A stretch of DNA of 64,000 bases from an uncultured Candidatus Rokubacteria bacterium (GCA_963747235.1 CAVVEU010000033.1:128001-192000), one strand, 5' to 3'. Shown: positions 23,038-32,440, numbered from the stretch's first letter. Notes: generated from the sequence alone by a model not told the origin. Numbers and translations are program-made.

Positions 23038-23186
23038 GCGGGTTCCTGCGTCGTCGTACTTCCAAGTCTACGACCGCGGGTAATTTCCCACCAAGCTTTG
23101 CCGCGCCCGCGCGGCGCACTGCGTAATGTTCGTGTATAGTCCAGCCGATCTCACCGCCGTCATGAACGAAATCGAGGAGGACGACG

Positions 23187-24185
23187 ATGTCCAGGGTCTT
23201 GATGATCGCCGCGTGCCTGCTGCGGCCCATTCCCGCGTGGGCCGCCGATACCGTCAACGTCTACACCGCCTGGCCCGAGTCGCTGTCGCAGCCGATCTTC
23301 AAGGCCTACACCGCCAAGACCGGCGTGCAGATCAACTTCATCCGCCTCTCCACCGGAGAGCTGGTGGCGCGCGCCACCGCCGAGAAGAACAACCCCCGCG
23401 CCGACGTGATCTGGGGCGCTCCGGGCGACGGCTTCGCGGCGGCCAAGGCGGCGGGCATCATCGAGCCCTACAAGGCGGCGGGCTGGGGCAAGATCGCCCC
23501 CGAGCTGAAGGATCCGGAGGGTTATTACACGGCGGTGAGCAAGAACACGCTGCTGTTCATGTCCAACGCCAAGCTCCTCAAGGAAAAAGGACTCAAGCCC
23601 CCCACCTCCTGGAACGATCTGCTCGATCCGGCCTACAAGGGACAGATCCAGACCGCGGATGCCCGCACCTCGGGCACCGCGCTGACGCGCATCCTCTCCA
23701 TCTACTACGCGTTCGGGAAGGACGAGGAGAAGACGATCGACTACCAGAAGAAGCTCCACGCGAACGTGCAGGTCTACACCAAGAGCGGCGGCGGCTGCAC
23801 CATCCCGGCCGCGATGGGCCAGGCCATGGTGTGCATCGCCCACATGCCCGACGCGATGGAGGCCAAGAAGAAGGGCTACGACATGGTGACCACGTTCCCC
23901 CGTGAGGGCGTGGCCGCGGTCATCGAGGCGGTGGCCCTGGTCAAGGGGGCCAAGAACCGCGAGGCCGCCACGAAGTTCATCGACTGGACGTTCACCAAGG
24001 ACATGCAGGACCTCCTCGACAAGAACGAGGTCTACATGCTGCCGACCCTGCCCGAGGGAAGCGTCAACCCGGCGGTCCAGGCCCTGATGAAGGAGGCCAA
24101 GCTCCTCCCGGTGGACCTCGAGTGGGTGGGCAAGAACCGCAAGCGCCTGGTGGACCGCTGGGTCAACGAGGTCATCAAGGACTGA
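23187..24185 (+). CDS. ABC substrate-binding protein, AfuA/FbpA/PotD-type (Fe3+, phosphonate or sugar-phosphate class)
   Basis: AEKNNPRADVIWG, PTSWNDLLDPAYKG, DARTSGT, AATKFIDW; GAGGAGG RBS. Confidence 0.88.
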   Translation: MSRVLMIAACLLRPIPAWAADTVNVYTAWPESLSQPIFKAYTAKTGVQINFIRLSTGELVARATAEKNNPRADVIWGAPGDGFAAAKAAGIIEPYKAAGWGKIAPELKDPEGYYTAVSKNTLLFMSNAKLLKEKGLKPPTSWNDLLDPAYKGQIQTADARTSGTALTRILSIYYAFGKDEEKTIDYQKKLHANVQVYTKSGGGCTIPAAMGQAMVCIAHMPDAMEAKKKGYDMVTTFPREGVAAVIEAVALVKGAKNREAATKFIDWTFTKDMQDLLDKNEVYMLPTLPEGSVNPAVQALMKEAKLLPVDLEWVGKNRKRLVDRWVNEVIKD

Positions 24186-24186
24186 C

Positions 24187-25889
24187 GTGAGCCCGGCCCC
24201 CGCCCCGGCGGGCTCGTCGCGGGCGGCGCTGCGGGATCCGGTCCTGGCCCCGGTGGTCCTGCTGCTCTGGGCGGCCGTCGCGCTCTTCGTTCTCTACCCG
24301 GTCACCCGGCTGCTCGCGCTGACGTTCTGGGACGACGGCCCGACGCTCGGCGCGGTACGCGAGCTCGTCGGGAGCTGGCAGCATCGCCGGGCGCTCTGGA
24401 ACAGCCTGGTCCTGGCCGGCCTGGTGGGCGCGGCGGGCACCGCGCTCGGCTTCGCCTTCGCGCTCCTGGCCGTCCGGGCGAACCTGCCGCGCTGGGTGGG
24501 CACGGTTCTCGATACCATCGTCCTGCTGCCGCTGATCTCCCCGCCCTTCACCGCCGCCATCGCCCTCATCTTCGCCCTGGGCCCGCGGGGGCTCATCTCC
24601 TATCACGTGTTCGGCATCACCGGCCTCAACATCTACGGCCTCGGCGGCACGCTCCTGTCGGAGACGCTCACCTACTTCCCGATCGCCTATCTCACGCTCA
24701 AGGGCGTGCTCGCCAACATCGACCCGAACCTGGAAGACGGCGGCTTCAGCCTCGGGCGCGCGGCGCTTGCGCGTGTTCCGCACCATCACCGTGCCGCTCG
24801 CGGCGCCGGGGATCGCCAACGCGTTCCTGCTCCTCACCGCGGCGTCGCTGGCCGACTTCGCCACCCCGCTGATCCTGGGCGGCACCAAGTTCCCGGTGCT
24901 CCCCACCCAGGCCTTTCTCCAGATCACCGGGCTCTACGACATGCGGGGCGGCGCCGCGCTCTCGTTCCTGCTGCTGGTCCCCGCGCTGGCCGTCTTCGTG
25001 GCCCAGCGCTGGTGGACGGAGCGCCGCTCGGTGGTCACGGTGACCGGCAAGGTGGGCGCGGCCACGCGCGTGAAGAGCCTCTCGCCCGGGGCGGTGGCGG
25101 CGCTGGCCCTGGTGTGCGCGCTCACCGTGACGCTGGTGCTGACCTTCTACCTGCTGATCGTGTTCGCCTCGCTGGTGCGGGCCCTGGGCGCGGACAACAG
25201 CTTCTCCACCGCCCACTACGCCCACGTGTTCAGCGGCGGGCTCAAGGCCATCCGCGACACCCTCGTCATCGCGGCGGTGTGCATGCCGGCGGGCGGGCTC
25301 TTCGCGGTGGTGCTGGGCTACGTGGTGGCGCGCACCCAGTTTCCCGGGACGCCGGGCCCTGGAGTTCGCGGCCATGATCAACTACGCGCTGCCCGGGACC
25401 ATCGTGGGCATCGCGTACCTGGTGGCGTTCAACGATCCGCCCCTGGCGCTGACCGGCACCGCGTTCATCCTGGTGATCTGCTACGTGTTCCGCTACAGCC
25501 TGGCCGGCACCCGCGCCACCACCGCGCTGCTCGCGCAGGTGGACCCGTCGATCGAGGAGGCCTCGGCGAGCCTCGGGGCGCGAAGGGACGTGACGTTTCG
25601 CCGGATCGTGCTCCCGCTGATCCGGCCCGCGCTGCTCGCGGGCATGACCGTGCTCTTCATCCGGGCCATGACCGCGATCAGCGCCACCATCTTCCTGGTC
25701 TCGCTGAGCTGGTCGCTGGTGACGGTGCGCATCCTCGAGGGCATCACCAATCTCGAGCTGGGGCAGGCCTCGGCCTTCTCGGTGCTGGTCATCCTGCTCG
25801 TCTACGCCGCGGTCATCCTCTCCAGCCTGGTCATGCGCCGGCTCAACGCGGGCAGCCTCGGCCAGGCGGGCACGCTGCTGGGCGGATGA
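24187..25889 (+). CDS. Duplicated-domain ABC permease, FbpB/AfuB type (frameshifts near 24760 and 25345)
   Basis: LPLISPPF, IDPNLED, SLADFATPLILGG, ALPGTIVG, VDPSIEEAS spread over three frames. Confidence 0.85.
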
Positions 25890-26986
25890 GCGCGGCGGGC
25901 GCGCGGCTCCGGCTCGTCTCCGTCTCCAAGCGCTTCGTCCGCGCCGAGCAGGGCGTGGCCGCGGTGGACGACGTGAGCCTCACCGTGGAGCCGGGCGAGC
26001 TGCTGACCCTGCTCGGGCCCTCCGGCTGCGGCAAGACCACGACCTTGCGAATGGTCGCGGGCTTCGAGCAGCCGGACTCGGGGCGGGTCCTGATCGACGA
26101 GCAGGACGTCACCGGCCTCATGGTCTACCGCCGGAGCATCGGCTTCGTGTTCCAGAACTACGCGCTCTTCCCGCACCTCACCGTGTTCGAGAACGTGGCC
26201 TACGGCCTGCGCGTGAAGCGGCTCGCCGCGGGCGCGATCCGCGAGCGGGTGGAGCGCGTGCTCGCCCTGGTGGGGCTCCCCGGCTACGAGCGCCGCTTCC
26301 CGAACCAGCTCTCGGGCGGCGAGCAGCAGCGGGTCGCGGTGGCGCGCGCGGTGGTGGTGGAGCCGCGGCTGCTCCTCTTCGACGAGCCGCTCAGCAACCT
26401 GGACGCCAAGCTGCGGGTGCAGATGCGCGAGGAGCTCTCGCGGCTGCAGCGCCAGCTCGCCATCACCACGATCTACGTGACCCACGACCAGGAAGAGGCG
26501 ATGGCCATCTCCGACCGCATCGCGGTGATGCACGCGGGCCGCGTGGCCCAGGTCGGCACCGCGCACGATCTCTACCGCGCGCCGCGCTCCGTGTTCGTCG
26601 CCCAGTTCATCGGCCGCGTCAACCTCCTGCCCGCCCGCGTGGTGCGCGCGGACCCCGGCGCCGCGGTGGTGGCCCTCTGGGGGCGCGAGATCCCGGTGCC
26701 CGCCGAGGAGCCGGCCGCGGCCGGGCAGACCGTGTCCCTGGTGCTGCGGCCCGAATCGGTGGCGCTCCTGCCCGAGGGCGCGGCCGCGCCGGCGGGGGAG
26801 GTCGCCGTCGCGGGCGTGGTGCGGAGCCGGACGTTCCTGGGCGAGAAGGTCGAGTACGCGGTGGAGGTCGCGGGCGTGCTGCTCCAGGCCGTCTCCTACG
26901 ATCCGCTCCGCCACGGCCTCTTCGACCTGGGCGCCCGCGTCCAGATCGCCTGCGCGCCCGCCTCCCTCCGCGTCCTCCGCGCCTGA
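25886..26986 (+). CDS. ABC ATP-binding protein, FbpC/PotA type with TOBE domain
   Basis: GPSGCGKTT, FQNYALFPH, LSGGEQQR, DEPLSNLD, VTHDQEEA. Confidence 0.93.
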   Translation: MSAAGARLRLVSVSKRFVRAEQGVAAVDDVSLTVEPGELLTLLGPSGCGKTTTLRMVAGFEQPDSGRVLIDEQDVTGLMVYRRSIGFVFQNYALFPHLTVFENVAYGLRVKRLAAGAIRERVERVLALVGLPGYERRFPNQLSGGEQQRVAVARAVVVEPRLLLFDEPLSNLDAKLRVQMREELSRLQRQLAITTIYVTHDQEEAMAISDRIAVMHAGRVAQVGTAHDLYRAPRSVFVAQFIGRVNLLPARVVRADPGAAVVALWGREIPVPAEEPAAAGQTVSLVLRPESVALLPEGAAAPAGEVAVAGVVRSRTFLGEKVEYAVEVAGVLLQAVSYDPLRHGLFDLGARVQIACAPASLRVLRA

Positions 26987-26992
26987 CCCCAG

Positions 26993-28306
26993 CTACCGCG
27001 CCATCATCTGGCGGGGGAGCCAGAGGGCGAGCTCGGGGAAGAGGAAGAGCAGGATCACCATGAGGATCATCAGCAGCACGTAGGGCGTGGTGCCCACCGT
27101 GACCTCGCGGGCGGTGCTGCCCGGCATCAGGCCCTGGATGACGAAGAGGTTCAGCCCCACCGGCGGCGTGATGAAGCCGATCTCGAGCCACACCACCATG
27201 ATGATGCCGAACCACACCGGGTCGAAGCCCAGGCCGGTGATGAGGGGGAAGAGGATCGGCAGCAGGATGATCATCACCGACAGCTCCTCGAGCGCGTAGG
27301 CGATCACGAGGAGGAACGAGAACACCGCGGTGAAGAAGGCCCACTTGGGCAGCCCGAGCGAGACCACGTAGGCGAGCAGGGCCTTGGGCGCGCCGATCAG
27401 GGCGATGACGTGGGAGAAGATGGCCGCGAAGATGATGATGGCCATCACCATCGAGGTGGTGCGCACCGTCTCCTCGAAGGCGCGCCGCATCGCCACCCAG
27501 GTGAGGGTCCCCGCCCACCAGGCGAGCAGCAGGCTCACCATGGTGCCCAGCGCCGCGGCCTCGGTGGGCGTGACGATGCCCAGGTACATCGAGCCCAGCA
27601 CCACCACGATCAGGATCGCGACCGGCAGCACCTCGCGCAGGGCCTCGAGCTTGGAGGCGAAGGAGCCGCGGTCCTCGGCCGCGCGCGGCGCCGCCTCCGG
27701 CCAGATCATCGCGTAGACGATCACGTAGGCCGCGAAGATCAGCGACAGCAGGATGCCCGGGATGATGCCCGCCATGTAGAGATGGCCCACCGAGGTCTCG
27801 GTCATCACCCCGTAGATGATCATCGGGATCGACGGCGGGATCAGGATGCCCAGCGTGCCCCCCGCGGCGAGCGAGCCGATGATCACGCTGCGGCGATAGC
27901 CGCGGCGCTCCATCTCGGGAATCGCGATCATGCCGATGGTGGCCGCGGTGGCCACGCTCGAGCCCGACACCGCCGCGAACACCGCGCAGGAGAAGATGCT
28001 CGCCACCGCGAGGCCGCCGGGCAGGAAGCCGACCCAGCGCGCCATCGCCCGGAAGAGGCCGCGGCCGATGCCCGAGTGCAGCAGGATGCCGCTCATGAAC
28101 ACGAAGAGCGGCACCGCGATGAACGAGAAGCTGGTGGCGTTGGACCAGGCGATGGACCCGATGACGCCCAGGCCCACCGTGAAGCCCTTGAGGTAGAGCA
28201 GCCCGAGCAGGCCGACCAGCCCGAGCGCGATGGACACCTCGAGCCCGAGGGCCAGCAGGAGGAACATGAGCCCGATCAGCAGGCTCCCGAGCAGGGCGTC
28301 GGTCAA
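26993..28306 (-). CDS. dctM: TRAP transporter large permease
   Basis: AVPLFVFM, FAAVSGSSVATAATIG, GGTLGILIPPS, ITPPVGLNLFV; TTG start overlaps the dctQ stop. Confidence 0.92.
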   Translation of the reverse strand: MTDALLGSLLIGLMFLLLALGLEVSIALGLVGLLGLLYLKGFTVGLGVIGSIAWSNATSFSFIAVPLFVFMSGILLHSGIGRGLFRAMARWVGFLPGGLAVASIFSCAVFAAVSGSSVATAATIGMIAIPEMERRGYRRSVIIGSLAAGGTLGILIPPSIPMIIYGVMTETSVGHLYMAGIIPGILLSLIFAAYVIVYAMIWPEAAPRAAEDRGSFASKLEALREVLPVAILIVVVLGSMYLGIVTPTEAAALGTMVSLLLAWWAGTLTWVAMRRAFEETVRTTSMVMAIIIFAAIFSHVIALIGAPKALLAYVVSLGLPKWAFFTAVFSFLLVIAYALEELSVMIILLPILFPLITGLGFDPVWFGIIMVVWLEIGFITPPVGLNLFVIQGLMPGSTAREVTVGTTPYVLLMILMVILLFLFPELALWLPRQMMAR

Positions 28307-28815
28307 CGGGGCTCCGTGGACGGCGGCACCTCGTCGCGCCCGGCGGGCGGCCCCAGCGCGGCGCGGAGCTGGCGGCGGAGGGCGCCGAGCATGACCGCGC
28401 TCATCAGGAGGAGGCCGGCCGGGATGAGCAGCATGGGCGCCCAGAGCGGGTACAGCATGACGGTGGACACGCGCCCGTACCGGTAGGCGGTGAGCGCGGA
28501 CTGCAGCGTGGTCCACGACACCACGAGGATGAACGCGATGCCCAGCGCCAGGCCGGCGGCCCGCAGCCAGGCGCGCAGCGCGGGCGGCAGGTGCGTGGTG
28601 ATCAGGTCCACCCGCACGTGCCCGCCGCTCAGGAAGGTGTAGGCGAGGCCGCCGAAGATCACCAGCACCAGGAGGAAGCTCGCCACCTCGTCCACGAAGA
28701 GCAGCGGCGAGTTGAGGAAGTAGCGGAGCAGGACGTCGGCGGAGATGAACACCGCGATGGCCAGCGTGGCGATGCCGGCCAGCAGCGCGGCGACCCAGGA
28801 GAGCCGCGCGATCAC
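28303..28815 (-). CDS. dctQ: TRAP transporter small permease
   Basis: DVLLRYFLNSPL, DEVA, GGHVRVD; four hydrophobic segments. Confidence 0.9.
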   Translation of the reverse strand: MIARLSWVAALLAGIATLAIAVFISADVLLRYFLNSPLLFVDEVASFLLVLVIFGGLAYTFLSGGHVRVDLITTHLPPALRAWLRAAGLALGIAFILVVSWTTLQSALTAYRYGRVSTVMLYPLWAPMLLIPAGLLLMSAVMLGALRRQLRAALGPPAGRDEVPPSTEPR

Positions 28816-28940
28816 AGCCCGAGCATCCGCAGCGCCTGCTCCACGACCTCCGCGAGCGCGGGCTCCGCCGAGCCCCCGAGGCTGCCCGACGCGATGGCGA
28901 GGGCCGCCGCCGCGGTCATGATCCAGGCGAGCCGGTTCAC
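28812..28940 (-). pseudogene. 42-aa ORF, probable internally deleted TRAP DctP (signal peptide plus C-terminal tail)
   Basis: GTG..TGA, MNRLAWIMTAAAALAIASGSLGGSAEPALA-EVVEQALRMLGL; GTGA overlaps at both ends; sits where dctP is expected. Confidence 0.5.
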
Positions 28941-29446
28941 CGGAGCAGCCCCGCGACGATGTCGGCGAGCGCGGCTTCGGCCTTGCGCCGCTGATCCTCC
29001 GCGGTCTCCCCGCCCTTCCGATGCGGGATCACCACCAGGGCCAGGTCCGGCACGTTCTGCAGCCGCGCCTGCATGCGCGCCGCGTTCTCGAAATTATCCC
29101 AGACGATCGTCACGGTATGGATCCCCCGCTTCTCCAGCGCGGCGGCGTCGAGCACACTGCCCGACGTGCACGAGCCTCAGAGCCCGATGCCCACCACCGC
29201 CGCGCTCGCGGCGGCCGCGGCCTCGTCGATGAGGGCGCGCGGCGAGGGCGCGGTGCCGGACGGCTTCACCAGCCGCCGCACGGTGGCCCCGTGCTCGCGG
29301 CCCAGCAGCGCCTCGAGATGGGTGGTGAACGGGATGTCGAGATTGTCGTCCACCAGGGCGATGGTGGCGCCCGCGAGCGCGCGCGGCCGCGCCGCCGCGG
29401 ATCCGCCGCCGCCGAGCTCGGGCCAGACCGGGCTCAGGATCTCCAT
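28937..29446 (-). CDS. UGSC-family selenoprotein (169 aa, Sec at TGA 29179-29177)
   Basis: ORFs 29177-29446 and 28937-29155 are in the same frame; read-through gives ..VVGIGL-U-GSCTSGSVLDAAALEKRGIHTV..; SECIS-like hairpin follows. Confidence 0.85.
29146..29166 (-). promoter_or_regulatory. Putative bacterial SECIS element
   Basis: CGUCGGGCA-GUG-UGCUCGACG, 9-bp stem with one G-U pair; starts 10 nt after the UGA; G-led apical loop about 20 nt from the UGA. Confidence 0.65.
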
Positions 29447-29449
29447 CGC

Positions 29450-30520
29450 TCAGGCCCTCCGGATCGCGCGGGTGACCGCGAAGCCCCCGAAGCCGCCCCA
29501 GCCGGGCAGCACCGCCGCGAAGTAGCTGCGCCCGCCCGCCACCGCGATGTGGATGTCGTCCGGCTCCGCGGAGACCGGGACGCGGGTGGTCGGGTTGTCG
29601 AGGTCGTAGCGGAGCGGGTAGCGGCCGGCGTCGCGCTCCATCTTCCGGAACTGCTCGTGCACCACCCCGCACGCCCGCACCTCGGCGATCGGCCGGCGCG
29701 CGTGCTCCCAGAGGTAGCGGCGCACGTCGGTCTTGGACCAGCCGCGCTTGGCGAACTCCTCGGCGTTGAGCGGGTTCAGCACCACCAGCATCTGCCCCAT
29801 CACGTGCATGTTGTTGTTGCCGAGCCCGCACATGGAGTCGGTCAGCACGTGGAGCATCTCCTCCGGCGTGCCGTAGCAGAAGACGCTGTGCGGCCCCTCG
29901 CAGGCGAAGACGGTCACCGCGTCGGACCCCGGCGGGCAGCCGCGCTCCACGTGCAGCGGCGCCCACGGGTTGTCTTCCTCCTCTTCCGCGATGCAGAACG
30001 CGTACTCGCCCGGGTGGGAGAGCGTGGCCTTGTCGGTGTCCCACGGCACCGCGCCGCCCAGGTTCCACAGCGCCAGCCGCACCGCGCGCCCCACCGCCGC
30101 GTTGGCCCGGTAGCCGTTGCCGAAGACCCCGTCGCGCGAGTTGAAGCCGAGCTCGCGCGCGATGGGGCCGTTGACGATGACCAGGGGCACGCACATGTGG
30201 GTGGTCTGGCTCACCCCGTTGAGATTGTGGGCGGGGTCGAGCAGCGCCTCCAGCGCGGCCAGCACCACCGGGAAGTGCGCGGGCAGGCAGCCGCCCATCA
30301 CCGCGTTGATGGCCAGCTTCTCGACCGTCGCGGGGCCGCCCTTGGGCGGCACCGGGCCCAGGCTCTCCTGCGGGTCGCGGCCCGCTCCCGCGATCATCGC
30401 CTCCACGCGCCGCCGCGTGGGCAGCACGACCGGGAGACCGTCGGTCCAGTTCCGCTGGTAGAAGAGCTCCACCGCCTCGTCGTAGTCGTCGATGTCGAGG
30501 CGTTCCGAGACGAGATACAT
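29450..30520 (-). CDS. Uncharacterised protein of the 'WTDGLPV' family (UGSC partner)
   Basis: WTDGLPVVLPT, ATVEKLAINAVMGGC, NGP, RANAAVGRA, AEEEEDNPWAPLHVERG, DIHIAVAGG; AGGAG RBS before ATG 30520. Confidence 0.8.
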   Translation of the reverse strand: MYLVSERLDIDDYDEAVELFYQRNWTDGLPVVLPTRRRVEAMIAGAGRDPQESLGPVPPKGGPATVEKLAINAVMGGCLPAHFPVVLAALEALLDPAHNLNGVSQTTHMCVPLVIVNGPIARELGFNSRDGVFGNGYRANAAVGRAVRLALWNLGGAVPWDTDKATLSHPGEYAFCIAEEEEDNPWAPLHVERGCPPGSDAVTVFACEGPHSVFCYGTPEEMLHVLTDSMCGLGNNNMHVMGQMLVVLNPLNAEEFAKRGWSKTDVRRYLWEHARRPIAEVRACGVVHEQFRKMERDAGRYPLRYDLDNPTTRVPVSAEPDDIHIAVAGGRSYFAAVLPGWGGFGGFAVTRAIRRA

Positions 30521-30628: not shown

Positions 30629-30651
30629 TGTCGGACCCCCCACCGGGATCC

Positions 30652-32440
30652 ATGGACGAAGCGGCCCTTCGGGAGATGCTCGCGCAGGTGAAGCACGGCG
30701 GTCTCACGCGCCGGCGCTTCGTGCAGGCGCTCGCCGCGCGCCGGCCTCGGCGCCCCGGTGGCCGGCGGCCTCCTGGGCGCGGCGGGCGTGGCCACCGCGC
30801 AGCCGCGCGAGGCCGACTTCACACCCACCCGGCGCGGCGGCGGCGGCACCCTCCGCATGCTGATGTGGGACGCGCCCACCCTGCTGCACCCGCACTTCGG
30901 CCGCGGCCTCCGCGACTTCACGGTCCAGCGGATCTTCTACGAGCCGCTCGCCGCCCCCGCCGCCGACGGCACCTTCGTGCCGGTCCTGGCCGAGGAGCTG
31001 CCCAACCGCAAGGCGGGCACGCTGGCCAAGGACGGGCAATGGGTGACGTGGCGGCTCAAGCGCAACGTGCTCTGGCACGACGGCGCTCCGTTCACCGCCG
31101 ACGACGTGATCTTCAACTGGGAGTTCGCGATCGACCCCGCCACCGCCGCGGGCACCCGCGCGGCGTACGACGACATCACGCGGATCGAGAAGATCGACTC
31201 GCACACCGTGAAGCTCGTCTTCAAGAAGCCGCAGCCCTTCTGGGCCTCCGCGTTCACCGGCGGCGGGCTGCTCCCGCGCCACCTCTTCGAGCGGGCGAAG
31301 GGCGCGGGCGCCCGCGAGGCGATCGGCATGCTGCCCGCGGTCGGCACCGGGCCCTACCGGCTCGCCGAGTTCCGGCCGGGCGACTTCATCCGCGCGGAGA
31401 TCAACAAGCACTACCACGTGCCGAACCGGCCGTTCTTCGACCAGCTCGAGATCAAGTGCGGCGGCGACGCGGTGGGGGCGGCCCGCGCGGTGCTGCAGAC
31501 CGGCGAGTACGACTTCGCCTACTACGTGCTGGTGGAAGAAGAGGTCCTGCGGCGGATCGAGCAGGGCGGCAAGGGCCGCGTCCTCTCCATCCCGAGCAGC
31601 GGGGTGAGCTTCATCCAGTGCAACCAGACGGATCCCTGGCGCGAGGTGGACGGCGAGCGCTCGAGCCTCAAGGCCCCCCACCCGCAGCTCAGCGAGCAGC
31701 CGGTGCGCACCGCGCTGAGCCTGCTGGTGGACCGCGTGGCCATCCAGGAGCACCTGGTGGGGCGGATCGGCCAGATCACGGCCAACTTCCTGACCTCCCC
31801 GGAGCGCTTCCGCTCGAGGAGCAGCACCTGGGAGTTCAACGTCGAGAAGGCCAACGATCTCCTGGACCAGGCGGGTTACGCGCGCGGCCCCGACGGAGTC
31901 CGCGCCAAGGACGGCCGGCGCCTGCGCTTACTGTTCCAGGCCGCGGCCAACAGCACGGTGCAGAAGATCCAGATGGTGGTCAAGCAGACGGCCGCGCGCG
32001 CGGGCGTGGAGATGGAAGTGAAGGCGATTCCGGCCTCGGTGTTCTTCGCCGCCGACGTCAACAACGTCGACACCAACGTCCGCTTCCTCGCGGATCTCCA
32101 GACCTACACCGTGTTCACCGGCCTCGACCCCCAGCTCTTCATGGCCCAGTTCGTGTCCTGGGAGGTGCCCACCAAGGAGAACGGCTGGACCGGGCGGAAC
32201 ATCGCGCGGTGGCGGAACGCGGACTACGACCGGCTGTGGCGCAAGGCGGACGTGGAGATGGACCCGGTCAAGCGGGCCGCCCTGTTCATCAAGATGAACG
32301 ACCTCGTGGTGCAGAAGGCGGTCGTGATTCCGGTGACGTGGCGCAACGTGCTCCACGCCGCCGCCAACAACCTGGCCGGCGTGGAGCTCAACTCGTGGGA
32401 CTCCATCTTCGGCCGGATCGCGTACTGGTACCGGGCCTAG
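30652..32440 (+). CDS. Orphan ABC family-5 substrate-binding protein with extended Tat signal (frameshift near 30738)
   Basis: MDEAALREMLAQVKHGGLTRRRFVQAL joins ORF 30758-32440 (LKRNVLWHDG, VGTGPY). Confidence 0.88.

What the first reader, a model, noticed from the sequence alone, without database searches (positions are those of the whole stretch)
28937..29446. Hidden UGSC selenoprotein with SECIS-like hairpin
Seen: two short same-frame ORFs (89 and 72 aa) are separated by a single TGA, and read-through gives ..VVGIGL-U-G-S-C-TSG.., a UxxC redox motif. Ten nt downstream is a 9-bp hairpin with a GUG loop (29146-29166). That hairpin uses an AGT Ser codon, which is uncommon in this GC-rich sequence. 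Known: bacterial SECIS elements lie immediately 3' of the Sec UGA with a G-containing apical loop, and 'UGSC-containing' proteins are a recognised selenoprotein family of unknown function. Inference: this is one 169-aa Sec protein, and the organism decodes Sec. Unlike the indel artefacts elsewhere, this break is an in-frame stop at a redox motif.
Basis: partly seen in the sequence, partly recalled or inferred. Interest (0 to 1): 0.85.

Follow-up and report, generated by a model that had tools for sequence, protein, structure and literature searches.

The report
UGSC selenoprotein gene with partner enzyme
The two short reading frames are one real selenocysteine-containing gene of the known but functionally unsolved UGSC family, and it sits beside an unnamed partner gene with which it probably forms a selenium-dependent reductase.

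Summary
Minus-strand 28937-29446 is one 169-codon gene. Its in-frame TGA (29177-29179) encodes selenocysteine in a U-G-S-C motif.

- **Family:** the read-through product matches Pfam PF24696 (UGSC) end to end.
- **Homologues:** all 9 full-length homologues have Cys at the TGA column, and closer ones stop exactly there.
- **Decoding genes:** the genome has tRNA-Sec, selA, selB and selD.
- **SECIS:** the 9-bp hairpin at 29146-29166 is real. It shows compensatory changes across paralogues. It is kept in 11 of 11 distinct TGA forms and lost in 2 of 2 TGC forms.

New context found here:
- The genome, a relative of Candidatus Rokuibacteriota, has nine UGSC genes, each with one TGA. Each lies next to a paralogue of the 356-aa upstream gene.
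- That partner belongs to a very large family with no Pfam model and no clear solved fold. Elsewhere it is often fused to UGSC or to thiol-redox modules.
- The Sec region is distantly homologous to GrdB/PrdB.

The family is already described and its function is unknown. This scan has reported the same pairing on other DNA. I class it as a new member of a known kind, of moderate to low interest.

The parts
28937..29446 (-). UGSC-family selenoprotein gene: 169 codons plus terminal TGA, ATG at 29446, GGAGG 9 nt upstream of the ATG
   Evidence: sequence. Pfam PF24696 at 6e-33 over residues 3-167. Orthologues at 73-95% identity each have one TGA.
29177..29179 (-). Sec codon UGA (residue 90) of the U-G-S-C motif; the resolving Cys is residue 93
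   Evidence: Cys in 9 of 9 full-length homologues at this column. U/C90 and C93 are two of only four invariant columns in a 29-sequence alignment. The TGA is kept in independent contigs.
29146..29166 (-). SECIS hairpin: 9-bp stem, GUG loop, starting 10 nt after the UGA and lying within codons T-S-G-S-V-L-D
   Evidence: Covariation counts. Present in 11 of 11 distinct TGA forms (8-9 of 9 pairs) and absent in 2 of 2 TGC forms (3 and 6 of 9 pairs).
29450..30520 (-). Partner gene, 356 aa, of a large unnamed family. Its TGA stop lies 3 nt before the UGSC start codon and in the same frame. The ATG at 30520 is inferred from where homologues begin to align; the ORF is open up to a GTG at 30643.
   Evidence: No Pfam or NCBIfam hit. 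5385 representatives at E<=1e-3. Adjacent to UGSC in 9 of 9 own and 31 of 31 relatives' loci. Fused to UGSC in other organisms.
28812..28940 (-). 42-codon ORF between UGSC and dctQ. It occupies the place where more distant orthologous loci carry dctP.
   Evidence: Conserved at 68-86% identity in 3 same-genus loci. No similarity to DctP. I am not sure it is a real gene.
28303..28815 (-). TRAP transporter small permease (DctQ), downstream in the same direction
   Evidence: Pfam PF04290 at 1.8e-26. Synteny in 7 of 8 orthologous loci.
26993..28516 (-). TRAP transporter large permease (DctM). The ORF is as listed; the family match starts at residue 81-91, so the true start is probably near 28270.
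   Evidence: TIGR00786 at 337 bits. PF06808 at 2e-89.

Best explanation
**Shown.** 28937-29446 (minus strand) is a single gene for a 169-residue selenoprotein of the UGSC family. The UGA at 29177-29179 is read as selenocysteine by the genome's own SelB and tRNA-Sec. A SECIS hairpin that starts 10 nt downstream directs this. Elsewhere in the genome TGA is the commonest ordinary stop.

**Strongly supported.** The protein works together with the product of the upstream gene (29450-30520), as a complex. That gene is a 356-aa protein of a very large family with no name. The two genes are adjacent in every copy examined and are fused into one polypeptide in many other organisms.

**Inferred.**
- The UGSC subunit is a flavodoxin-like (beta-alpha)5 domain with Sec90 at the N-terminus of a helix and Cys93 one turn later. 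This region is a distant homologue of the Sec-bearing C-terminal core of the GrdB/PrdB reductase selenoproteins.
- I propose that the selenolate attacks a small organic substrate held by the partner, or a partner-bound intermediate.
- Cys93 would then resolve the adduct to a selenenyl-sulfide.
- A thioredoxin-type system would re-reduce that bond.
- The substrate would be an organic acid imported by the co-transcribed TRAP transporter.

**My odds.** Real Sec protein with SECIS: 0.97. Functional unit with the partner: 0.85. GrdB/PrdB-like reductive chemistry recycled by thiol reductases: about 0.35.
For: **Family and Sec/Cys pairing**
- PF24696 matches end to end.
- 9 of 9 full-length homologues have C-G-S-C. 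Six closer ones are cut exactly at ...VGIGL (16 of the 31 hits were aligned).

**Decoding machinery**
- tRNA-Sec at 69.3 bits against a cut-off of 47, with ARAGORN calling SeC (tca).
- selA at 578 bits, selB at 365 bits and selD at 228 bits, all over their cut-offs.
- TGA ends 392 of 704 long ORFs, so the recoding is site-specific.

**SECIS**
- 97.3% of cells paired, and 3 pairs with changes on both sides (GU<->UA in 10 sequences, CG<->GC in 8, GC<->AU in 1).
- The first two loop bases, G and U (from the AGT codon), are invariant in 29 of 29.
- Slid controls give 23-49%.
- TGA forms keep 8-9 of 9 pairs (11 of 11). TGC forms keep 3 and 6 of 9 (2 of 2).

**Lineage pattern**
- Nine PF24696 genes in this genome, each with one TGA.
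- 61 of 61 related genomes have matches. All 150 listed rows, of 319 matches, carry one TGA.

**Partner**
- Adjacent in 9 of 9 own loci and 31 of 31 relatives' loci.
- Of 62 partner-family representatives over 400 aa, 41 carry UGSC or a piece of it cut at the Sec position in the same ORF.
- 2 carry the ferredoxin:thioredoxin reductase catalytic chain, 1 a peroxiredoxin/redoxin domain and 1 a thioredoxin-reductase-like flavoprotein domain.

**GrdB/PrdB link**
- hhalign of UGSC against GRDB-like cores gives probability 95.7%, E 8.7e-9 over 59 columns, with Sec aligned to Sec.
- Against four full-length GRDB proteins it gives 85%, E 6e-6.
- Full-length GRDB genes of relatives read U-G-S/T-C-x-R-C.

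**Transporter link**
- The operon reads partner-UGSC-dctQ-dctM here, with dctP as well in a more distant orthologous locus.
- Other paralogues sit by MFS, TctC/TctA, EamA or ABC transporter genes.
Against: - There is no experimental evidence of Se incorporation, of a complex, or of any substrate.
- The NCBIfam equivalog model is matched only at 84 bits against a cut-off of 125. This is therefore a divergent branch (G-L-U instead of G/A-D-U).
- The hairpin's energy is not unusual for this GC content.
- The covariation comes from related coding sequences, so part of it could reflect coupled amino-acid changes.
- The GrdB/PrdB similarity covers only 59-71 columns. It partly rests on the shared U/C-x-x-C, and the third Cys of GrdB's UxxCxxC is absent.
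- The partner shows no similarity to GrdB (probability 0.2%) and matches no Pfam family, so none of the pyruvoyl proproteins GrdE/PrdA either.
- 5 of 16 complete UGSC-partner fusions have neither Sec nor Cys at the Sec column. In some members the UGSC domain is therefore not redox-active.
- dctP is missing from this locus.
Confidence: 0.85

Rival explanations
1. UGSC is a free-standing thiol/selenol oxidoreductase, a thioredoxin-like general antioxidant. Its closeness to the upstream gene would then have no mechanistic meaning.
For: It has a UxxC redox motif. The 2008 GOS paper calls it likely Trx-like (PMC2398784, passages seen). It is a separate ORF here.
Against: Adjacency holds in 9 of 9 own and 31 of 31 relatives' loci. 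UGSC is fused to the partner in 41 of 62 long partner representatives. The model is a (beta-alpha)5 flavodoxin/CheY-like domain, and none of the 50 best VIA rows is a thioredoxin-fold protein. Nine paralogues, each beside a different transporter, look like substrate-specific enzymes rather than a housekeeping antioxidant.
Confidence: 0.1
2. The TGA is a true stop caused by a nonsense mutation, pseudogene decay or an assembly error. The locus would then give an 89-aa fragment, or two small proteins.
For: This assembly does carry apparent frameshifts elsewhere, for example both selD copies. The folding z-score of the hairpin is only -1.0.
Against: The same TGA is present in 6 orthologous genomes, in 11 distinct metagenome sequences, and in contigs of two DNA runs and one RNA-library run. 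The frame downstream stays conserved at 73-95% amino-acid identity. Cys replaces it in homologues. All nine paralogues have a TGA at the same column.
Confidence: 0.02
3. The organism reads UGA generally as an amino acid under an alternative genetic code, so no Sec-specific mechanism is involved.
For: None beyond the open frame.
Against: TGA terminates 392 of 704 long high-GC3 ORFs, including the partner gene and the UGSC gene itself. A dedicated tRNA-Sec with selA and selB next to it is present. The hairpin accompanies TGA forms and not TGC forms.
Confidence: 0.01

Closest known systems
UGSC-containing (seleno)protein family: Pfam PF24696, NCBIfam NF041046, the 'UGSC-containing protein' of the GOS selenoproteome study (PMC2398784)
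   Same: Full-length Pfam match. U-G-S-C motif at the conserved column. The family is dominated by Sec forms: 255 Sec against 21 Cys in GOS (passage seen), and every listed row in this lineage has a TGA. A fusion to an unknown domain ('Unknown_1') was already noted in that paper.
   Different: This is a divergent branch, at 84 bits against the 125-bit NCBIfam cut-off, with G-L-U rather than G/A-D-U. It occurs here in a soil Rokuibacteriota-like genome with nine paralogues. I could not see Figure S1 (a PDF) of that paper, so I could not confirm that 'Unknown_1' is the partner family described here.
GrdB / PrdB selenoproteins of glycine and D-proline reductase (Pfam PF07355, GRDB)
   Same: Sec sits after a beta-strand at the start of a helix, in U-x-x-C followed by ...LE..GIPTV... 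Profile-profile probability is 95.7% and 85%, with Sec aligned to Sec. Relatives' full-length GRDB genes literally read U-G-S-C. A thioredoxin-system link is suggested by the fusions and parallels the thioredoxin dependence of glycine reductase (review PMC13188914, passages seen).
   Different: There is no PF07355 match. The roughly 350-residue N-terminal body of GrdB is absent, and so is the third Cys of UxxCxxC. The partner is unrelated to GrdB and matches no Pfam family. No grdA, grdC or grdD context was seen in the window region scanned.
Bacterial SECIS elements, with E. coli fdhF as the type. The bSECISearch-style criteria are recalled from memory, not taken from a call.
   Same: A hairpin immediately 3' of the UGA inside the coding region. 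The apical loop starts with G-U. The loop begins 19 nt after the UGA.
   Different: The loop is very short (3 nt) and no bulged U was seen. No Rfam family matches. The stem sequence is shared almost unchanged by many paralogues.

Membership tests
UGSC family (Pfam PF24696) | Profile match above the gathering score over the whole domain | tested here: met
   114.8 bits against a cut-off of 25; residues 3-167 on profile positions 2-170 of 172.
UGSC family (Pfam PF24696) | U/C-G-S-C motif at the conserved column, with Cys in non-Sec homologues | tested here: met
   GL-U-GSC. 9 of 9 full-length homologues have CGSC. U/C90 and C93 are invariant in 29 sequences.
UGSC family (seleno)protein, NCBIfam NF041046 (equivalog model) | Score at or above the curated cut-off of 125 bits | tested here: not met
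   84.2 bits, E 9e-24. This is a divergent branch. Six of the genome's other eight paralogues score far higher than this gene on the Pfam model and two score lower. They were not scanned against NCBIfam.
Bacterial selenoprotein gene | Sec-decoding machinery in the same genome (tRNA-Sec, SelA, SelB, SelD) | tested here: met
   Both selD copies look frameshifted in this assembly.
Bacterial selenoprotein gene | SECIS hairpin directly downstream of the UGA, conserved with Sec forms and absent from Cys forms | tested here: met
   97.3% paired, 3 compensatory pairs; 11 of 11 TGA forms against 2 of 2 TGC forms.
Bacterial selenoprotein gene | Selenium actually incorporated into the protein | not testable with these tools
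   Needs 75Se labelling or mass spectrometry.
GrdB/PrdB (Pfam PF07355 GRDB) | Match to the GRDB profile | tested here: not met
   Only PF24696 is reported at E<=10.
GrdB/PrdB (Pfam PF07355 GRDB) | Homology of the Sec-bearing core | tested here: met
   hhalign probability 95.7%, E 8.7e-9 over 59 columns, and 85.2% against full-length GRDB. The region is short, so this shows relatedness and not membership.
GrdB/PrdB (Pfam PF07355 GRDB) | Pyruvoyl-forming partner (GrdE/PrdA type) encoded alongside | tested here: not met
   The adjacent partner matches no Pfam family and is unrelated to GRDB. Only the neighbouring genes were examined.
Thioredoxin-fold oxidoreductases | Thioredoxin fold around the UxxC motif | tested here: inconclusive
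   The AF2 model (pLDDT 90) is a (beta-alpha)5 parallel sheet. The top 50 VIA rows (Z 9.5-11.5) are receiver, Rossmann and flavodoxin-like domains, with no thioredoxin among them.

The most novel reading that the evidence does not exclude
UGSC and its unnamed partner (about 5400 representative clusters, no Pfam model, no clear solved fold) form a new and very widespread class of selenium-dependent small-molecule reductases. It would be mechanistically akin to glycine and proline reductase but built on a different catalytic subunit. It would have diversified into about nine transporter-linked, substrate-specific paralogues per genome in soil Rokuibacteriota. If so, one of the most abundant 'function unknown' selenoprotein families would become testable through its partner and its cognate solute-binding proteins.
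Probability: 0.3. Interest if true: 0.7.

Novelty: new member of a known kind. Interest (0 to 1): 0.3.

Why it matters
For annotation, gene callers split or truncate this gene at the UGA. The closest database entries end at ...VGIGL. All nine copies in this genome, and hundreds in its relatives, are affected in the same way.

For biology, UGSC is one of the most abundant selenoprotein families in environmental data and has no known function (PMC2398784 and PMC13188914, passages seen). Four observations together give a concrete and testable route to a function:
- the strict pairing with a large unnamed partner family;
- fusions of that partner to thiol-redox modules;
- the distant GrdB/PrdB relationship;
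- the transporter context.

None of this is new in kind. The family, its Sec usage, a fusion to an unknown domain and the selenoprotein richness of Methylomirabilota are all in print. This scan has also reported the same pairing on other genomes.

Tried and rejected
**Searches that gave nothing useful**
- Sequence search of solved structures found nothing significant for UGSC (best E 1.3) or for the partner (best E 0.083, a thioredoxin reductase that I treat as chance).
- The Foldseek PDB search with the partner model found no match at E<=0.001. The best rows were class I fumarate hydratase and Toblerone-fold hydrolases at TM 0.19-0.26.
- The VIA wide search with the partner model gave a best Z of 5.8 over 83 residues, with 0 chains at Z>=8. 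I read this as no assignable fold, not as proof of a new one.
- The ESM Atlas returned only unnamed clusters.
- An Rfam scan of 28900-29500 gave only three chance-level rows at E>6.
- Our-findings look-up by place found nothing for this genome.

**Complex prediction**
It therefore says nothing either way.

**Smaller tests**
- orf42 against DctP gave no similarity.
- hmmsearch of the UGSC profile against the genome's two own GRDB-like genes gave only 17.8 and 4.8 bits. This is suggestive only, and the profile-profile test carries the claim.

**Read laying**
- One search used assembled contigs only. It cannot show expression level, strand or transcript ends.
- The coverage of an RNA-library contig over the TGA may come from DNA carry-over.
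- The depth peak in bin 29136-29202 probably comes from paralogues and other organisms that share the conserved motif. It is not evidence of expression.

**Readings rejected**
- Alternative genetic code, pseudogene and sequencing error (see rival explanations).

**Not done**
- A covariance-model search for more copies of this SECIS type.

Full report
**Observation**

On the minus strand, one search lists an 89-aa ORF (29177..29446, ATG) and a 72-aa ORF (28937..29155, GTG) in one frame. Reading the stretch through with TGA=U gives a 169-residue product with a single internal UGA at 29177-29179, in the context ...AAVVGIGL-U-GSC-TSGSVLDAAALEKRGIHTV... A GGAGG lies 9 nt before the ATG. The upstream gene's TGA stop lies 3 nt before the ATG.

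folds a 9-bp stem with a GUG loop at 29146-29166, starting 10 nt after the UGA. Taken alone, this fold is not unusual for DNA of 71% GC (z = -1.0; 30 of 200 shuffles fold at least as well). The AGT serine codon in the stem and loop is rare here. It accounts for 365 of 20,496 Ser codons (1.8%) in 704 long high-GC3 ORFs.

**Family**

The read-through protein matches Pfam PF24696 (UGSC family) over residues 3-167 at 114.8 bits, E 6e-33. It matches the NCBIfam equivalog NF041046, 'UGSC family (seleno)protein', at 84.2 bits. That is below its 125-bit cut-off, so this gene is a divergent branch of the family.

The word-index search found 31 proteins.
- Nine are full length (169-187 aa, 52-58% identity). 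All nine have Cys at the UGA column (CGSC).
- Six closer relatives (66-76% identity) end exactly at ...VGIGL. Gene callers produce that ending when they stop at a Sec codon (I aligned 16 of the 31 hits and left out short fragments).

In a 29-sequence alignment that adds paralogues and orthologues read with TGA=C, only four columns are invariant: G26, U/C90, C93 and F119.

**Decoding machinery**

The window's genome is G000 (5.57 Mb, 42 contigs, 88% complete). It holds the following.
- A tRNA-Sec at 69.3 bits against a gathering score of 47, which ARAGORN calls SeC with anticodon tca.
- selA at 578 bits and selB at 365 bits, next to the tRNA-Sec on contig C14.
- selD at 228 bits on C27.

TGA is nevertheless the commonest ordinary stop, ending 392 of 704 long ORFs. 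The recoding is therefore site-specific.

**The hairpin is a SECIS element**

The stem sequence is almost unchanged in the six orthologues from other genomes (L027-L032, 73-95% amino-acid identity). One of them has a single base change near the base of the stem. Flanking synonymous sites vary.

Across paralogues the stem changes while pairing is kept:
- CGUCGGGCA/UGCUCGACG (S-G-S-V-L-D);
- CGUCGUGGA/UCCACGACG (S-W-S-I-H-D);
- CGUCGUGCA/UGCACGACG (S-C-S-L-H-D);
- one CAUCG.../...CGAUG variant.

I aligned 29 distinct sequences. I left out the two U-S-T-C and U-G-T-C paralogues, whose hairpins have a different geometry. On this alignment:
- 97.3% of cells form standard pairs, against 87.6% on average in shuffles (0 of 500 shuffles reach the observed value);
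- 3 of 9 pairs have changes on both sides (GU<->UA in 10 sequences, CG<->GC in 8, GC<->AU in 1);
- registers slid by 1-3 columns give only 23-49% pairing.

The AGU that supplies the first two loop bases (G, U) is invariant in 29 of 29.

The classical control also holds. The metagenome scan returned 23 loci of this subfamily, which reduce to 13 distinct 48-nt stretches, plus one locus where no motif was found. The 11 TGA forms keep 8-9 of the 9 pairs in the fixed register. One of them has a compensatory G-C to A-U change. The 2 TGC (Cys) forms keep 3 and 6 of 9.

One caveat applies. These are related coding sequences, so the covariation is not fully independent of protein constraints. No Rfam family matches the region.

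**Not an error**

Contigs from two soil DNA runs span the UGA: X1 record 1 (1408 nt) and X2 record 27, which is identical over 162 nt. So does one contig from an RNA library (X15 record 10, 505 nt). No difference at 29177-29179 appears among the 40 best-supported differences shown; 198 more were not shown. All of these are assembled contigs. They show that the TGA is present, not that the gene is expressed, and DNA may be present in the RNA library.

**Lineage pattern**

PF24696 finds nine genes in this genome, each with exactly one in-frame TGA, and none in 14 control genomes. The motifs are U-G-S-C seven times, U-S-T-C once and U-G-T-C once.

In 61 of 61 related genomes (same genus, family and order) the protein finds 319 matches. 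All 150 listed rows carry one TGA. This tally includes G029, which is flagged as unpublished.

The nearest named relative is a 'Candidatus Rokuibacteriota' MAG. A 2026 review notes a Methylomirabilota MAG with 63 predicted selenoprotein genes (PMC13188914, passage seen).

**The partner**

The upstream gene (29450-30520, 356 aa from the ATG at which homologues begin to align) has no Pfam or NCBIfam match, even at E<=10 for Pfam. Its family is nonetheless very large. In the 50%-clustered library it has 5385 representatives at E<=1e-3 and 1304 at E<=1e-30.

tblastn places a paralogue directly beside each of the nine UGSC genes, in either gene order. Two further paralogues have no UGSC detected nearby. 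In 31 of 31 loci from relatives the partner is again adjacent.

I scanned 62 of the 150 listed representatives, namely those longer than 400 aa.
- 16 have a complete UGSC domain fused at the N-terminus.
- 21 begin with the post-Sec part of UGSC. These are UGSC(Sec)-partner fusions cut at the UGA.
- 4 end with the pre-Sec part. These are partner-UGSC(Sec) fusions.
- 2 carry the ferredoxin:thioredoxin reductase catalytic chain. One of these is also among the 21.
- 1 carries an AhpC/redoxin domain.
- 1 carries a thioredoxin-reductase-like Pyr_redox_2 domain.
- 18 have no Pfam hit. Several of these are tandem partner duplications of about 710 aa.

Among the 16 complete fusions, the Sec column holds Cys in 11, and 8 of those also have the second Cys. 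It holds Ser, Ile or Ala in the other 5. Some members are therefore not redox-active.

In this genome two pairs (C8:271193-272776 and C14:220771-222396) have no stop between the Sec codon and the end of the partner.

The GOS paper already mentions a 'UGSC/Unknown_1 fusion' (PMC2398784). Its Figure S1 is a PDF that I could not read, so the identity of Unknown_1 with this partner is likely but unverified.

**Structures**

The partner model is confident (pLDDT 94.5, pTM 0.93) but has no convincing solved relative.
- Foldseek gives a best E of 1.4e-3 at TM 0.26.
- VIA wide gives a best Z of 5.8 over 83 residues, with none at Z>=8.
- Fe-S-type hydro-lyases (fumarate hydratase class I, L-serine dehydratase, CyuA) recur weakly at Z 3.4-4.5. 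I note this only as a lead.

The UGSC model (pLDDT 90.0) is a five-stranded (beta-alpha)5 domain. Sec90 lies at the end of strand 82-88 and the start of helix 91-106. Its best structural matches are generic receiver, flavodoxin and Rossmann-like domains (Z 9.5-11.5; mixed Foldseek hits). No thioredoxin-fold protein is among the top 50. I read this as 'not obviously Trx-like', not as excluding that fold.

**Link to GrdB/PrdB**

PF07355 (GRDB) matches two genes in this genome, and both matches stop just before a TGA. The continuations read ...DAVLITPT-U-PFC... and ...DAVVLVPS-U-PVC-HQTVGLAARHLEANGIPTV.... Full-length GRDB genes in relatives read ...T/G-U-GSC-N/H-RCG...ELER.GIP....

- Profile-profile comparison of the UGSC alignment with these GRDB-like cores gives probability 95.7%, E 8.7e-9 over 59 columns, with Sec aligned to Sec.
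- Against four full-length GRDB proteins it gives 85.2%, E 6.1e-6 over 71 columns.
- The partner shows no similarity to GRDB (probability 0.2%).

UGSC is therefore a relative of the Sec-bearing core of GrdB/PrdB. It is not a member of that family.

**Context and proposed mechanism**

The operon reads partner, UGSC, a 42-codon ORF, dctQ and dctM. DctQ follows in 7 of 8 orthologous loci. In the more distant orthologous locus L074 a dctP lies between UGSC and dctQ. That gene is missing here. A 78%-identical dctP lies on contig C4.

Other paralogous pairs sit beside MFS, TctC/TctA, EamA and ABC transporter genes and assorted dehydrogenases.

From these facts I infer a two-subunit, thioredoxin-recycled reductase for imported small organic molecules.
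- The partner binds the substrate.
- Sec90 attacks it.
- Cys93 resolves the adduct to a selenenyl-sulfide.
- A thiol reductase regenerates the pair.

Only the gene, the Sec codon, the SECIS and the genetic linkage are shown. The chemistry is inference (about 0.35).

**Comparison and verdict**

The family, its UxxC motif, its dominance by Sec forms and a fusion to an unknown domain are all published (PMC2398784). Reviews still list its function as unknown (PMC9312934 and PMC13188914; passages seen).

Other follow-ups in this scan have reached the same reading on other DNA: a real UGSC selenoprotein, an unnamed partner, thioredoxin-type modules and a distant GrdB/PrdB relation. 243 findings hold the search words. 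I reached these points from my own calls before that look-up.

This gene is a correctly spotted, probably mis-annotated, new member of a known kind.

Noticed in passing
G000 contigs C8:271193-272776, C8:275984-277536, C19:7655-9103, C24:625677-627244, C33:207833-209387 (outside the window), C40:390370-391759, C14:220771-222333, C13:49273-50842: Eight further UGSC genes, each with one in-frame TGA and each beside a paralogue of the partner gene, in either order. In two of them (C8:271193-272776 and C14:220771-222396) no stop separates the Sec codon from the end of the partner, so they are Sec-containing fusion proteins.
   Followed up: partly
G000:C29:143316-143717 and G000:C8:471097-471339, each followed by a TGA: Two short GRDB/PrdB-like genes (PF07355) continue through a TGA as T-U-PFC and S-U-PVC. 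They are probably further selenoproteins of this genome.
   Followed up: partly
G000:C27:46033-46945 and G000:C8:303000-304000: Two selD genes. The C27 copy is a Cys type (LCGGCAAK). The C8 copy is a Sec type (ACAG-U-ASK). Both change reading frame within the gene in this assembly, once and several times respectively. This indicates either indel errors in the assembly or decayed copies.
   Followed up: partly
window 28812-28940 (-); L074:3527-4549; G000:C4:84172-85191: The TRAP solute-binding gene dctP lies between UGSC and dctQ in the more distant orthologous locus L074. It is missing here and in same-genus loci, where a conserved 42-codon ORF unrelated to DctP takes its place. A 78%-identical dctP lies on another contig.
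   Followed up: partly
G000:C13:286203-287180 and G000:C14:138020-139068: Two partner-family paralogues with no UGSC gene detected beside them. The first is directly preceded by a response-regulator receiver gene (C13:285722-286183).
   Followed up: no
window 29136-29202 and 30275-30341: In all four runs laid, summed contig depth is several-fold higher in these two 67-nt bins (the Sec codon plus SECIS, and a conserved block of the partner) than in the bins around them. The likely cause is that paralogues and other organisms share these stretches at 90% identity or more.
   Followed up: no
window 29450-29452 (-): The partner gene's TGA stop lies 3 nt before the UGSC start codon and in the same frame. 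In orthologue L030 the gap is 39 nt, so I take it as a true stop and not a second recoding site.
   Followed up: no
window 23166-26986 (+) and 30758-32440 (+): An ABC transporter (SBP_bac_6/1, permease, ATPase with TOBE domain) lies convergent to the TRAP genes. A family-5 solute-binding protein gene lies divergent from the partner gene.
   Followed up: no
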